A program made the position numbers. This document shows positions 26,501 through 29,500 of a DNA stretch of 64,000 nt, in pieces (positions within the stretch are counted from its first letter, which is position 1; every line of letters starts with the position of its first letter). The DNA is taken from assembly GCF_036507355.1 (NCBI RefSeq), contig NZ_AP027877.1; one strand, written 5' to 3'. The stretch comes from Escherichia coli. GTDB taxonomy: Bacteria; Pseudomonadota; Gammaproteobacteria; Enterobacterales; Enterobacteriaceae.

Positions 26501-29500
26501 TATTAGGTCGTGCACGCAAGGACGAGCGCAGCAGCCACTAACCCCAGGGAACCTTTGTTACCGCTATGACCCGGCCCGCGCAGAACGGGCCGGTCATTAT
26601 CTCATCGTGTGGAGTAAGCAATGTCGTGTGAAGAACTGGAAATTGTCTGGAACAATATTAAAGCCGAAGCCAGAACGCTGGCGGACTGTGAGCCAATGCT
26701 GGCCAGTTTTTACCACGCGACGCTACTCAAGCACGAAAACCTTGGCAGTGCACTGAGCTACATGCTGGCGAACAAGCTGTCATCGCCAATTATGCCTGCT
26801 ATTGCTATCCGTGAAGTGGTTGAAGAAGCCTACGCCGCTGACCCGGAAATGATCGCCTCTGCGGCCTGTGATATTCAGGCGGTGCGTACCCGCGACCCGG
26901 CAGTCGATAAATACTCAACGCCGTTGTTATACCTGAAAGGTTTTCATGCCTTGCAGGCGTATCGCATCGGCCATTGGTTGTGGAATCAGGGCCGTCGCGC
27001 ACTGGCTATTTTTCTGCAAAACCAGGTTTCTGTGACTTTCCAGGTCGATATTCACCCGGCAGCAAAAATTGGTCGCGGTATCATGCTCGACCACGCGACG
27101 GGCATCGTTGTGGGTGAAACGGCGGTGATTGAAAACGACGTATCGATTCTGCAATCTGTGACGCTTGGCGGTACGGGTAAATCTGGTGGTGACCGTCACC
27201 CGAAAATTCGTGAAGGCGTGATGATTGGCGCGGGCGCGAAAATTCTCGGCAATATTGAAGTTGGGCGTGGCGCGAAGATTGGCGCAGGTTCCGTGGTGCT
27301 GCAACCGGTGCCGCCGCATACCACCGCCGCTGGCGTCCCGGCACGCATTGTCGGTAAACCAGACAGCGATAAGCCATCAATGGATATGGACCAGCATTTT
27401 AACGGCATTAACCATACGTTTGAGTATGGTGATGGGATCTGACGTCCTGTGATCGTGCCGGATGCGATGTAATCATCTATCCGGCCTACAGTAACTAATC
27501 TCTCAACACCGCTCCCGGATACCCCAGCTGCCGCCAGGCTTCATACACCACTACCGACACTGCATTAGACAGATTCATACTGCGGCTGTCCGGCACCATT
27601 GGAATACGAATTTTTTGTTCAGCGGGCAGGACATCAAGAATGCTCGCTGGCAGGCCGCGCGTTTCCGGGCCGAACATCAGATAATCACCATCCTGATAAC
27701 TTACGGCGCTATGTGCGGGCGTACCTTTAGTGGTGAGGGCAAACAGGCGCTGGGGATTTTCTGCTTCGAGGAACGCGCTGTAGTCATGATGACGCGTAAC
27801 GGCGGTAAACTCGTGATAGTCCAGCCCCGCGCGGCGCAGGCGCTTATCGTCCCAGGCAAATCCCATCGGTTCGATGATATGCAGACGAAAACCGGTATTA
27901 GCGCAAAGACGGATGATGTTGCCAGTATTTGGCGGAATTTCTGGTTCGTAAAGTACGATGTTTAGCATACTGCCCCCTTAGTGCGGGGGCAGGATAGCAG
28001 AAAATTGGTGAGCAGTGCGGCCTTTTCCCCTCACCCCGTAGGGGCGAGGGAGAAAAAAAGAGTGCGGTGTCGTTTCAGAGTGAGGGAGTACATACAGCGC
28101 CGAACGGTCCCCTCTCCCTGAGGGAGAGGGTTAGGGTGAGGGGGCGCAAACAACTATGCCGCATTCCCTTTCGCCATGGGAGCCAGTGCCACAGGCAACT
28201 CTTTACCCAGCCCCTGCACCAGCGAATCTTGCGTAATTTCGCTGATCGATTTCGCGCCAGTCAGCGTCATCGCCACTTTCATCTCTTTTTCGATCAGATT
28301 TAGCAGGTTAGCTACACCCGCCTGGCCCGCTGTTGCCAGCGCATACAGGAAAGCACGACCCAGCAGTACGGTGTCGGCACCGAGCGCAATCATACGCACG
28401 ACATCAAGCCCGTTACGAATTCCGCTATCCGCCAGAATGGCGATATCACCTTTCACCGCATCTGCAATAGCAGGCAGTGCACGGGCGGAAGAGAGTACAC
28501 CGTCCAGCTGGCGGCCACCGTGGTTAGAAACCACAATTCCATCAGCACCAAAACGTACTGCATCGCGCGCATCTTCCGGATCGAGGACCCCTTTGATCAC
28601 CATCGGGCCATCCCAGAAATCGCGGATCCACTCAAGGTCTTTCCATGAGATGGACGGATCGAAGTTATTCCCCAGCCAGCCGATGTAATCTTCCAGTCCG
28701 GTCGGTTTGCCGAGATAAGCTGAGATATTACCTAAATCATGTGGACGACCGTTCAGGCCCACATCCCACGCCCATTGCGGATGCGTCACCGCCTGCAAAT
28801 AGCGGCGCATTGCCGCGTTCGGGCCGCTCATTCCAGAATGCGCATCACGGTAGCGTGCGCCCGGTGTCGGCATATCCACGGTGAAAACCAGCGTCGAACA
28901 ACCCGCTGCTTTTGCTCGCTCCAGCGCGTTACGCATAAAGCCGCGATCGCGCAGTACATAAAGCTGGAACCACATTGGGCGCTTGATGGCTGGCGCGACT
29001 TCTTCAATCGGGCAAACGGAAACCGTCGAGAGAGTAAACGGAATGCCATGCGCGTCCGCCGCTTTGGCTGCCTGAACTTCGCCACGACGCGCATACATGC
29101 CACACAAACCCACCGGAGCCAGTGCCACCGGCATCGACAATTTCTCATTAAACAGCGTCGTTTCCAGGCTTAAGTCGGACATGTTTTTCAGAATACGCTG
29201 GCGCAGCGCCACTTCTGACAAATCTTCCACGTTGCGGCGCAGCGTGTATTCAGAATATGCACCCCCATCCATATAGTGGAACAGGAACGGCGGCAGAATG
29301 CGTTGCGCTGCGGCGCGATAATCGCTGGCTGCGGAAATAATCATGCGTTTTTCTCCCTCGAATGCTCATTATGCTCACCGGGCAGGCGGGTAATCCGTGC
29401 GTGGCGAGCCTGATCTTCATCGAATCGTTTCATGGTGGTGTGAACAAAACTAAGGTGCGCCATCATTGCTTTACGCGCCCCGTCGGCATCACCAGCAAAA

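What the first reader, a model, noticed from the sequence alone, without database searches (positions are those of the whole stretch)
28020..28150. A family of GC-rich palindromic intergenic repeats distinct from REP
Short hairpin-forming units built on ccctcaccc/gggtgaggg and ccctctccc/gggagaggg occur in clusters downstream of lldD (28020-28150), on both sides of the REP pair between mtlA and mtlD (41195-41270 and 41374-41408), and as a single imperfect copy upstream of selA (46090-46115). They are always intergenic and often abut REP elements, suggesting a second class of structured extragenic repeat (mRNA-stabilising or terminator-like). I cannot confidently assign them to a named family from memory.
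Basis: seen in the sequence. Interest (0 to 1): 0.35.

Follow-up and report, generated by a model that had tools for sequence, protein, structure and literature searches.

The report
Known BoxC (triplex-motif) intergenic repeats
The GC-rich hairpin repeats after lldD and between mtlA and mtlD are copies or decayed copies of BoxC, a catalogued E. coli repeat family of still-unknown function, and follow-up showed that these repeats consistently flank a small nuclease-like gene family (YcjD/DUF559) across many bacteria, which may point to their origin.

Summary
The repeats are real, far above chance and intergenic, but the family is already catalogued. It is BoxC, also published as PIT elements and as the TMECO intrastrand-triplex motif (CCCTCNCCC-N3-6-GGGNGAGGG-N3-GGGNGAGGG).

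- **lldD-trmL:** window 28110-28143 is base-for-base K-12 TMECO no. 17. Window 28027-28052 is TMECO no. 18 with one 12-nt block deleted.
- **mtlD-proximal cluster:** a degenerate inverted pair of the same unit (2 mismatches).
- **mtlA-proximal hairpin:** only BoxC-like.
- **selA-upstream hairpin:** not a member.

**New lead.** YcjD-type DUF559 (Vsr-like nuclease) genes are bracketed by these units in Proteobacteria and an NC10 genome. This held at 15 of 15 loci inspected. 49 of 120 homologues, and 77 of 129 in a second sample, carry tails translated from the repeat. The lldD-trmL composite is collinear with the 3' flank of the enterobacterial DUF559 genes. This suggests a REP/RAYT-like partnership. 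Mobility is unproven, and two filled/empty comparisons show no target-site duplication.

The parts
28027..28143 (.). Composite BoxC element in the lldD-trmL spacer: an inverted unit, a 57-nt spacer, then a forward unit. Its outermost blocks are CCCCTCACCCC and GGGGTGAGGGG.
   Evidence: Sequence. Orthologous to K-12 3781028-3781156, which holds TMECO 17 and 18. Collinear, spacer included, with the 3' flank of the K. quasipneumoniae DUF559 gene.
28110..28143 (+). Canonical three-block BoxC/TMECO unit, type A: CCCTCTCCC-tga-GGGAGAGGG-tta-GGGTGAGGGG.
   Evidence: 0 mismatches to the published pattern. Identical to TMECO no. 17 in Table 1 of Holder 2015. The 51 nt around it match at a median of 20 places per E. 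coli genome.
28027..28052 (-). Truncated homologue of TMECO no. 18. The middle block plus its linker (12 nt) is missing, leaving a two-block hairpin (CTCCCTCGCCCC-tac-GGGGTGAGGGG on the - strand).
   Evidence: Alignment with K-12, which has 12 more nt here. RNA fold -24.4 kcal/mol, z -4.5.
28053..28109 (.). Spacer of the composite. It contains one isolated purine block, GTGAGGGAG, at 28080-28088.
   Evidence: Sequence. Its ends (GAGGGAGAAA......CCGAACGGT-CCCTCTCCC) are shared with the Klebsiella DUF559 3' flank. It is replaced by a 35-nt IS4/Tn5-end-like palindrome in about 790 E. coli genomes.
41234..41266 (-). Degenerate three-block BoxC-like unit next to mtlD: CCCTCTCC-tcac-GGAGAGGG-ttt-GGGTGAGGG on the - strand.
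   Evidence: 2 mismatches to the TMECO pattern with an 8-nt stem. It is the only other three-block hit in 64 kb. It is absent from Holder's strict list. It is single-copy by BLAST and present in 5405 of 5426 genomes.
41211..41228 (+). Remnant of an inverted partner unit: two purine blocks (GAGAGGG-ctg-GGGTGAGG) with no pyrimidine block of their own. It pairs with 41235-41252.
   Evidence: 18-nt arms, 89% complementary. Fold -38.6 kcal/mol, z -4.2. This matches the collapsed-pair form ('palindrome effect') that Holder 2015 describe.
41374..41407 (.). 16-bp hairpin directly after the mtlA stop, built from fused block-like halves (CCCCACC-TTCTCC / GGAGAGG-GTGGG). It is BoxC-like at best and its membership is undecided.
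   Evidence: z -4.6. No third block. Single-copy, and variable or absent among strains: 4526 of 5426 genomes match.
41271..41370 (.). Context only, not part of the family: a pair of inverted REP elements (a BIME) lying between the two BoxC-like structures.
   Evidence: Inverted repeats I2 and I4. Sub-threshold Rfam match to the REP-derived naRNA4.
46095..46116 (+). Imperfect 8-bp hairpin between yibF and selA (GCCCTTCTC-cgtgt-GAGAGGGC). It is not a BoxC member.
   Evidence: Weak fold, -11.4 kcal/mol, z -2.9. No three-block match. One copy per genome, at least 99% identical in 5267 genomes.

Best explanation
**Shown.** The lldD-trmL cluster is a pair of BoxC repeats (also called PIT elements or TMECO). 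One is intact and one has lost a 12-nt block. The mtlD-proximal cluster is a decayed inverted pair of the same unit. A unit has one pyrimidine block (CCCTCNCCC) followed by two purine blocks (GGGAGAGGG, GGGTGAGGG). The first block can pair with either purine block, and the isolated strand forms an intrastrand triplex in vitro according to the literature.

**Shown here.** The units lack terminator or promoter anatomy. They are dispensable. They change between strains by whole-block (12-nt) gains and losses and by collapse between repeated blocks.

**Inferred, and the mechanism I commit to.** The units are not expression signals for lldD, trmL or mtl. They are selfish or relic DNA belonging to a repeat-plus-gene system whose gene is a YcjD-type DUF559 (Vsr-like, PD-(D/E)XK) nuclease. 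In many bacteria that gene is bracketed by these units. In enterobacteria it ends inside an inverted unit and is followed by a spacer and a forward unit, which is the same composite that sits gene-less after lldD. The nuclease is proposed either to act on the folded unit and seed its copying into intergenic DNA, or to home into such units, in analogy to REP/RAYT.

My confidence that this is BoxC is about 0.97. My confidence in a specific DUF559 partnership is about 0.5-0.6. My confidence that DUF559 actually mobilises the units is about 0.3.
For: **Identity**
- 28110-28143 equals TMECO 17, and 28027-28052 equals TMECO 18 minus 12 nt.
- Copy number is a median of 20 per genome. Published BoxC and TMECO censuses give 22-32 and 23 copies.

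**Not an expression signal**
- No terminator or promoter anatomy.
- Published negative assays.
- BoxC-free alleles exist.

**Block dynamics**
- A 12-nt indel separates K-12 from the window.
- The pair at hrpB-mrcB has collapsed to one hairpin in strain 2009C_3612.
- A 12-nt block has been lost at the ycjD 3' end in K-12 relative to another lineage.

**DUF559 link**
- Three of three Mitsuaria DUF559 paralogues are bracketed by units.
- 8 of 8 arbitrarily chosen homologues from other lineages, tail-less ones included, have units within about 60 nt of an ORF end.
- E. asburiae, K. quasipneumoniae and two E. coli lineages show the order gene, inverted unit, spacer, forward unit.
- Block density is 16.2 per kb within 200 nt of the genes and 1.2 per kb farther away.
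- 49 of 120 homologues have C-terminal tails, and 24 of 120 have N-terminal tails, that are translations of the unit in three different frames. Controls give 0.
- In an independent sample clustered at 50% identity, 77 of 129 carry such tails against 1.9 expected.
- The nuclease core is strongly conserved: KFRRQ, DF, ELDGGxH. It matches PDB 3HRL at E 1e-27.
- The spacer is collinear between lldD-trmL and the Klebsiella DUF559 flank.
- TMECO 9 is the forward unit of ycjD's own 3' composite.
- TMECO counts are highest (13-30) in the E. coli phylogroups that carry ycjD and are 0-2 in B2 (strain-to-phylogroup assignments are from my own knowledge).
Against: - The window holds no DUF559 gene or remnant (tblastn).
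- E. coli phylogroups D, E and F keep 6-15 TMECOs without ycjD. The strain-level correlation amounts to one phylogenetic contrast.
- TMECO loci are mostly orthologous between strains, so nothing suggests recent movement in E. coli.
- Two filled/empty comparisons (lldD-trmL against SMS-3-5; hrpB-mrcB against AR_0086) show replacement of adjacent sequence up to the upstream stop codon. There is no clean insertion and no target-site duplication.
- The direction of the association is unknown, and no nuclease activity on the unit has been tested.
- Holder et al. found no mobility genes near TMECOs.
- My literature search covers only an open-access library, so an earlier description of the DUF559 link could exist.
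Confidence: 0.6

Rival explanations
1. One reading: the hairpins act at RNA level as terminators or 3'-end mRNA stabilisers for lldD and mtlA, as REP elements can.
For: The units lie just downstream of lldD and mtlA and fold into stable RNA hairpins on the transcribed (-) strand. The hairpin at 41374-41407 starts 3 nt after the mtlA stop.
Against: No T-tract follows any unit on either strand, and the terminator scan is negative. Published tests found no terminator or promoter activity. Family members show no orientation bias relative to genes and lie more often upstream than downstream of ORFs. BoxC-free alleles of lldD-trmL are common.
Confidence: 0.1
2. The view of Holder et al.: the units matter as triplex-forming DNA that stalls replication or repair and so raises local genetic variability, possibly as a selected source of variation.
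For: In vitro triplex shown by CD and NMR, and TMECO loci more rearranged than control intergenic sites. In this analysis the lldD-trmL spacer exists in at least five length classes, 47-197 nt.
Against: No triplex signal was seen in duplex DNA or by in vivo footprinting. The same specific bases (A in block 2, T in block 3) are kept in distant phyla, and the link to one gene family points to common descent or recognition rather than a generic structure. Variability is also expected for any dispensable selfish repeat.
Confidence: 0.2
3. The association runs the other way. BoxC units spread or persist by some other means, and the DUF559 gene is a homing-type selfish gene that inserts into unit pairs, as some insertion sequences target REP.
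For: DUF559 shares a fold clade with Vsr and a group I intron homing endonuclease. Forward-then-inverted unit pairs with 16-31-nt linkers, which look like unoccupied sites, exist in E. coli and in the NC10 genome. The cassette in a Burkholderiaceae genome sits exactly between two operon genes.
Against: In enterobacteria the gene has units on its 3' side only. No occupied/empty pair at the same locus was found.
Confidence: 0.2
4. Compositional artefact or chance similarity of unrelated GC-rich hairpins.
For: This holds only for the weakest sites. The selA-upstream hairpin, and possibly the mtlA-proximal one, share an 8-mer with the family but nothing else.
Against: Enrichment over shuffles, exact identity to catalogued copies, and about 20 copies per genome.
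Confidence: 0.02

Closest known systems
BoxC, also called PIT (potential intrastrand triplex) elements or TMECO (Holder et al. 2015, NAR, PMC4666352; listed as BoxC in Petrillo et al. 2008, PMC2267715)
   Same: Same three-block sequence, same loop classes (TTA type A; CCG type B in K-12), same intergenic location, same copy number, and the very loci listed as TMECO 17 and 18.
   Different: In this window the TMECO 18 copy lacks its middle block. The mtl copies are degenerate (8-nt stems) and absent from the strict published list. The selA hairpin is not a member.
REP/BIME elements with their RAYT (TnpA-REP) transposase; REPINs
   Same: Short GC-rich structured intergenic repeats that occur singly and as inverted pairs, and copies of the repeat flank a small nuclease-type gene. 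The repeat varies between gene lineages (CCCTCCCCC blocks around the NC10-type genes).
   Different: Unrelated sequence, with three blocks rather than a simple palindrome with a GTAG head. The partner gene is a PD-(D/E)XK Vsr-like DUF559 protein, not an HUH Y1 transposase. No mobility has been shown.
MITEs (for example ERIC/IRU and Correia elements)
   Same: Inverted terminal units enclosing a short or variable interior. Could in principle derive from a gene-bearing element by internal deletion.
   Different: No target-site duplication and no clean filled/empty boundaries at the two loci compared. Single units are the commonest form.
Intrinsic terminators and REP-type mRNA stabilisers
   Same: A GC-rich stem-loop downstream of a gene.
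   Different: No U-tract, no orientation bias, and published negative assays.

Membership tests
BoxC / PIT / TMECO | Three-block pattern CCCTCNCCC-N3-6-GGGNGAGGG-N3-GGGNGAGGG | tested here: met
   28110-28142 has 0 mismatches. 41234-41265 has 2 mismatches with a 2-nt first loop. No other hit in 64 kb, and shuffles give about 0. Not met by 28027-28052 (two blocks), 41374-41407 or 46095-46116.
BoxC / PIT / TMECO | Orthology or identity to a catalogued copy | tested here: met
   The window's lldD-trmL units correspond to K-12 3781028-3781061 (TMECO 17, identical) and 3781121-3781156 (TMECO 18, with 12 nt fewer in the window). The mtl units are not in the catalogue.
BoxC / PIT / TMECO | Dispersed multi-copy family, about 20-35 copies per E. 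coli genome, intergenic | tested here: met
   Median 20, maximum 35 places per genome. Top hits lie under no annotated feature. The mtl and selA units are single-copy at BLAST sensitivity.
BoxC / PIT / TMECO | Occurs as closely spaced inverted pairs combining a type A and a type B unit | tested here: met
   K-12 pairs 17 (type A) with 18 (type B mm). In the window one partner is truncated. The orientation here, inverted unit then forward unit, differs from the other four K-12 pairs.
BoxC / PIT / TMECO | The isolated purine-rich strand forms an intrastrand triplex | not testable with these tools
   Reported in vitro by CD and NMR for identical sequences, and not detected in duplex DNA or in vivo.
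REP / BIME | REP consensus palindrome (GCCGGATGCGGCG...-type stem) | tested here: not met
   The BoxC units share no sequence with the REP pair at 41271-41370. Rfam naRNA4 (REP-derived) matches only the REP part.
Intrinsic terminator | GC-rich stem-loop followed by a T-run on the transcribed strand | tested here: not met
   No terminator-like site at any unit on either strand. A-runs, not T-runs, follow the 28027-28052 hairpin on both strands.
REP/RAYT-like repeat-plus-gene system | Repeat units flank the partner gene | tested here: met
   15 of 15 DUF559 loci inspected. Enrichment of 16.2 against 1.2 blocks per kb. Repeat-encoded tails in 49 of 120 and in 77 of 129 homologues.
REP/RAYT-like repeat-plus-gene system | The partner is an HUH (Y1) transposase | tested here: not met
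   The partner matches Pfam DUF559 (E 1e-38 to 1e-49) and PDB 3HRL, in the Vsr-like PD-(D/E)XK clade.
REP/RAYT-like repeat-plus-gene system | Repeat abundance tracks presence of the gene across genomes | tested here: inconclusive
   E. coli phylogroups A, B1 and C (with ycjD) have 13-30 TMECOs and B2 has 0-2, but D, E and F (without ycjD) have 6-15. This amounts to a single phylogenetic contrast.
REP/RAYT-like repeat-plus-gene system | The protein binds or cleaves the repeat, and the repeat is mobile | not testable with these tools
   No experimental data were found.
MITE | Clean insertion with target-site duplication | tested here: not met
   Filled against empty alleles at lldD-trmL (SMS-3-5) and at hrpB-mrcB (AR_0086) differ by replacement of flanking bases up to the upstream stop codon. 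No duplication is present. Only two loci were compared.

The most novel reading that the evidence does not exclude
BoxC/TMECO units are the repeat half of a previously undescribed repeat-plus-gene system, analogous to REP/RAYT. Its gene is the YcjD-type DUF559 Vsr-like nuclease. The nuclease recognises the folded three-block unit, whose block 1/block 3 pairing carries a conserved G·T or T·T mismatch. The gene-less units scattered through E. coli, including those after lldD, are its non-autonomous or relic copies.
Probability: 0.4. Interest if true: 0.7.

Novelty: already known. Interest (0 to 1): 0.4.

Why it matters
The feature flagged in the window is ordinary. It is a named repeat family whose copies at this locus are already listed by coordinate, so annotation should call it BoxC and should not treat it as a terminator.

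BoxC has had no known origin, partner or function since the early 1990s. The consistent bracketing of YcjD/DUF559 genes by these units across distant bacteria gives that question a concrete, testable candidate. It also gives a first functional context to a very large family of uncharacterised nuclease-like proteins (about 24,000 cluster representatives at E<=0.001).

The finding also explains the odd PSPxPSP, PHPxPLPxxGEG and LSRxRER tails in many predicted proteins: gene callers have read through the repeat.

Tried and rejected
- **fabI downstream.** I looked there for the original 'box C' from memory. It was the wrong side; the copy (TMECO 9) lies upstream of fabI, next to ycjD.
- **K-12 RefSeq annotation.** It carries no repeat features in this region, so it could not name the elements.
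- **MAFFT alignment of the 23 published units.** It put the length differences at the 5' end instead of in the loop. I therefore built no covariance model and used an explicit three-block scan instead.
- **Genome contigs pattern scan.** It gave no taxonomic census, only four organisms. The published census (262 proteobacterial genomes) was read instead.
- **BLAST of the mtl and selA units.** It found no paralogues, partly because 28 Gb of database limits sensitivity for 9-nt blocks.
- **Rfam.** No family covers the units.
- **G-quadruplex reading of GGG-AGA-GGG-TTA-GGG-TGA-GGG.** Considered and set aside, because NMR in Holder 2015 favoured a triplex over a quadruplex.
- **Search for a transposase-like ORF between unit pairs in Mitsuaria.** It produced only ordinary or spurious ORFs, apart from the DUF559 genes.
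- **tblastn for DUF559 in the window.** Negative.
- **PADLOC and NCBIfam.** They give YcjD no function.
- **Reversed-sequence control.** Uninformative for palindromic peptide patterns, so it was replaced by a shuffle of the extensions.
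Full report
**Setting.** The window is E. coli-like DNA, collinear with K-12 3.755-3.785 Mb in reverse orientation. The relevant genes are:
- trmL 27495-27968 (-)
- lldD 28154-29344 (-)
- mtlD, ending at 41181 (-)
- mtlA 41411-43324 (-)
- yibF 45433-46041 (+)
- selA 46139-47530 (+)

These assignments rest. The window is not identical to any of 5426 complete E. coli genomes. The best match is 98.4% over 20 kb, to O145 strains.

**Observation.**
- The pyrimidine block CCCTCWCCC occurs 5 times against 0.46 expected.
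- The looser CCYTCTCC occurs 7 times against 1.84 expected.
- No shuffle reaches either count.
- All occurrences fall in four intergenic spacers, although about 85% of the window lies under long ORFs.
- The units form stable hairpins.

The four sites are not equal, however. Scanning the whole window for the three-block architecture, with up to 4 mismatches allowed, returns only 28110-28142 (+, perfect) and 41234-41265 (-, 2 mismatches).

**Identification.** Full-text search led to Petrillo et al. 2008, who list BoxC as a known E. coli stem-loop family of 50-56 nt and 22-32 copies. It also led to Holder et al. 2015, who state that the element first called BoxC, later PIT, is their TMECO motif: CCCTCNCCC-N3-6-GGGNGAGGG-N3-GGGNGAGGG.

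Their Table 1 lists 23 copies in MG1655:
- No. 17, CCCTCTCCCTGAGGGAGAGGGTTAGGGTGAGGGG at 3781061-3781028, is identical to window 28110-28143.
- No. 18, at 3781121-3781156, is the orthologue of window 28027-28052.

In the window, no. 18 lacks 12 nt: one block plus its linker. What remains is the plain hairpin CCCCTCACCCC-gta-GGGGCGAGGG.

A 51-nt query around the intact unit matches a median of 20 and a maximum of 35 places per genome in 5425 of 5426 E. coli genomes, almost all chromosomal. This agrees with the published censuses.

**The other sites.**
- *mtlD-proximal cluster (41211-41266).* This is a degenerate inverted pair. On the - strand it carries a three-block unit with 8-nt stems, plus a partner reduced to two purine blocks that pairs with it. 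This is the collapsed-pair form that Holder et al. call the palindrome effect. It is fixed in E. coli, present in 5405 of 5426 genomes.
- *mtlA-proximal hairpin (41374-41407).* It is built of fused block-like halves, has no third block, is single-copy and is variable among strains. It may be a further-decayed remnant, but this cannot be shown.
- *yibF-selA hairpin (46095-46116).* It is weak, single-copy, nearly invariant, and shares only an 8-mer with the family. I do not count it as a member.
- *REP.* Only the mtl structures abut REP elements.

No unit is followed by a T-run on either strand, and the terminator and promoter scans are empty at the units. Rfam has no family for them. According to Holder et al., earlier experiments found no promoter or terminator activity and no effect on RNA polymerase. 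Members show no orientation or distance preference relative to genes.

The elements are dispensable. The lldD-trmL spacer comes in at least five forms:

| Strain or source | Spacer length | Feature |
|---|---|---|
| K-12 | 197 nt | both units intact |
| this window | 185 nt | one unit 12 nt shorter |
| EC931 type | 153 nt | centre replaced by a 35-nt palindrome |
| APEC O2-211 | 72 nt | one block left |
| SMS-3-5 | 47 nt | no BoxC |

**Dynamics.** Changes come in block-sized steps.
- A 12-nt indel separates K-12 from the window.
- A 12-nt difference occurs at the 3' end of ycjD between lineages.
- At hrpB-mrcB, strain 2009C_3612 has collapsed the TMECO 1+2 pair to a single hairpin by deletion between the two GGGAGAGGG blocks.

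In the two filled/empty comparisons I could make (lldD-trmL against SMS-3-5; hrpB-mrcB against AR_0086), the difference is a replacement reaching the upstream stop codon. It is not a clean insertion, and there is no target-site duplication. That argues against classical cut-and-paste MITE behaviour.

**Related sequences elsewhere.** It still returned four organisms:
- 145 strict copies in 0.9 Mb fetched from Mitsuaria chitosanitabida, a betaproteobacterium
- 13 in a Methylomirabilota (NC10) MAG
- 3 in a Contendobacter MAG
- 5 in an unclassified MAG

The architecture is conserved, and so are the specific bases: A in block 2 and T in block 3. In Mitsuaria the unit extends by TCTTCGG on its 3' side. 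27 of 30 close pairs there have the orientation inverted-then-forward, the same as at lldD-trmL. These pairs enclose 30-270 nt of unrelated, often tandem-repetitive DNA.

**The DUF559 link.** While looking for genes between unit pairs in Mitsuaria, I found two, and then a third by tblastn. These are paralogous ORFs of 139 aa that match Pfam DUF559 (E about 1e-38). Each has a forward unit about 20 nt upstream of its ATG and an inverted unit overlapping its 3' end.

E. coli YcjD is 48% identical to them. It ends ...RRSPSP*, encoded by CCCTCTCCC-tga. TMECO 9 lies just downstream of ycjD, between ycjD and fabI.

I then tested how general this is.

1. *Protein tails, first sample.* I queried with the Mitsuaria core, with its tail removed. 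Of the best 120 homologues, 49 carry C-terminal tails that are translations of an inverted unit, in three different reading frames (PSPxPSP, PHPxPLPxxGEG, LTPxLSRxRER). 24 carry N-terminal LSRxRERxxVR tails from a forward unit. Reversed or shuffled sequences give none. Use of all three frames shows that the DNA is conserved, not the peptide.
2. *DNA at arbitrary loci.* I read the DNA around eight arbitrarily chosen homologues, six of them tail-less. All eight have units within about 60 nt of an ORF end. The NC10-type genes are flanked by a variant unit (CCCTCCCCC / GGGGGAGGG).
3. *Block density.* It is 16.2 per kb within 200 nt of the genes and 1.2 per kb farther out in the same loci.
4. *Protein tails, second sample.* This was an independent search of cluster representatives with a tail-less Marinobacter query. 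77 of 129 proteins have repeat-type peptides in their extensions. Shuffled extensions give 1.9, and the conserved core gives 0.
5. *Enterobacteria.* E. asburiae, K. quasipneumoniae and a second E. coli lineage share one arrangement. The gene ends inside an inverted unit, with the stop codon TGA in the hairpin loop. A spacer follows, and then a canonical type A unit.
6. *Spacer collinearity.* The Klebsiella spacer is collinear with the lldD-trmL spacer (GAGGGAGAAA...CCGAACGGT-CCCTCTCCC). The composite in the window therefore looks like a gene-less copy of the 3' end of such a cassette.
7. *An intact enzyme.* The protein core is strongly conserved (KFRRQ, DF, ELDGGxH). It matches the solved 'endonuclease-like protein' 3HRL. 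It is classified with Vsr and a homing endonuclease in the PD-(D/E)XK superfamily.

**Co-occurrence within E. coli.** Holder's Table S7 gives TMECO counts per strain (UMN026 from Table S1). The strain-to-phylogroup assignments are from my own knowledge.

| Phylogroup | TMECOs per strain |
|---|---|
| A | 13-24 |
| B1 and C | 23-30 |
| E | 10-11 |
| D | 13-15 |
| F | 6-7 |
| B2 | 0-2 |

A 2026 study reports ycjD in phylogroups A, B1 and C (plus ST69 and ST182). Elsewhere the eefRABCD operon occupies the same site. The highest counts therefore coincide with ycjD. But D, E and F retain units without the gene, and the pattern amounts to one phylogenetic contrast. This evidence is suggestive only.

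**Interpretation.**
- *Shown:* the flagged repeats are BoxC/TMECO. They lack terminator anatomy. They are dispensable and evolve by block slippage. Units of this family bracket YcjD-type DUF559 genes across distant bacteria.
- *Inferred:* the two form a repeat-plus-gene system comparable to REP/RAYT, with a different kind of nuclease.

Three readings remain open: the nuclease spreads the units, the gene homes into unit pairs, or the units serve the gene (block 3 sits where a ribosome-binding site would be, and the stop codon lies in the hairpin loop).

I found no paper linking DUF559 or ycjD to BoxC. Holder et al. state that they found no mobility-related genes near TMECOs. The library searched holds open-access papers only.

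**Verdict.** The first-stage finding is a correct sighting of an already known and catalogued repeat family, with an unsupported functional guess and one non-member included. On its own it deserves a low score. The moderate score reflects the DUF559 association, which emerged during follow-up and makes the origin of BoxC experimentally approachable.

Noticed in passing
L047 5881-6600, L048 1113-1752, L050 11450-12113, L128, L130, L131, L133-L141; K-12 L003 (ycjD): YcjD-type DUF559 (Vsr-like nuclease) genes are bracketed by BoxC/TMECO-type units in Beta-, Alpha- and Gammaproteobacteria and in an NC10 genome. Many predicted proteins carry tails translated from the repeat. No paper in the searched library describes this.
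   Followed up: yes
L124 about 415-450 (E. coli EC931 allele of the window 28053-28109 spacer): In about 790 E. coli genomes the centre of the lldD-trmL BoxC composite is replaced by a 35-nt palindrome, CTGTCTCTTGATCAGGAGATCTGATCAAGAGACAG. It consists of two inverted ends resembling the IS50/Tn5 inside end. The palindrome occurs in 2568 of 5426 genomes (median 2 places), including inside annotated IS4/Tn5-family transposase genes and on plasmids.
   Followed up: partly
window 27967-27995: An 11-bp hairpin (ACTGCCCCC...GGGGGCAGG) lies directly upstream of the trmL start codon. Its 3' arm on the transcribed strand contains the Shine-Dalgarno-like GGGGG. It is invariant in all six aligned alleles, including the BoxC-free one, so it is a possible translational control element for trmL.
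   Followed up: no
window 45362-45433: The rhsA-yibA-yibJ-yibG... island that separates yibF from yibH in K-12 is absent here. yibH is followed directly by yibF.
   Followed up: no
whole window: The window matches none of the 5426 complete E. coli genomes closely. The best is 98.4% over 20 kb (O145 strains) and 97.7% over lldD-trmL, so it comes from a lineage outside that collection, possibly Shigella or a rare Escherichia lineage.
   Followed up: partly
L013 1662-1772, L069 203-283, L070 1713-1818 (Mitsuaria): The DNA enclosed by inverted-then-forward unit pairs in Mitsuaria is not conserved between copies and often consists of short tandem repeats of 7-15 nt.
   Followed up: no
K-12 L003 (reverse complement) 583-760, compared with L141 1240-1360: K-12 ycjD has lost one 12-nt block of its terminal inverted unit and carries a partial duplication of about 50 nt of its own 3' end before TMECO 9. 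Another E. coli lineage keeps the intact order gene, unit, spacer, unit.
   Followed up: partly
L127 (E. coli HH97) 410-520: This allele shows many T>C and A>G changes confined to the BoxC blocks, turning them into long C and G runs. This looks like an assembly or base-calling error at these G/C-rich repeats rather than biology.
   Followed up: no
window 31946-32053: Sub-threshold Rfam match to the enterobacterial sRNA STnc380 (34.9 bits against a gathering score of 60; E 0.0015).
   Followed up: no
L142 / L143 / L144 (hrpB-mrcB spacer) and window 28150-28160: At both BoxC loci compared, the boundary between filled and empty alleles lies at the stop codon of the upstream gene and changes its last codons. 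lldD ends ...ECGI* with BoxC and ...ECSL* without it. hrpB ends in TAA with BoxC and TGA without it.
   Followed up: partly
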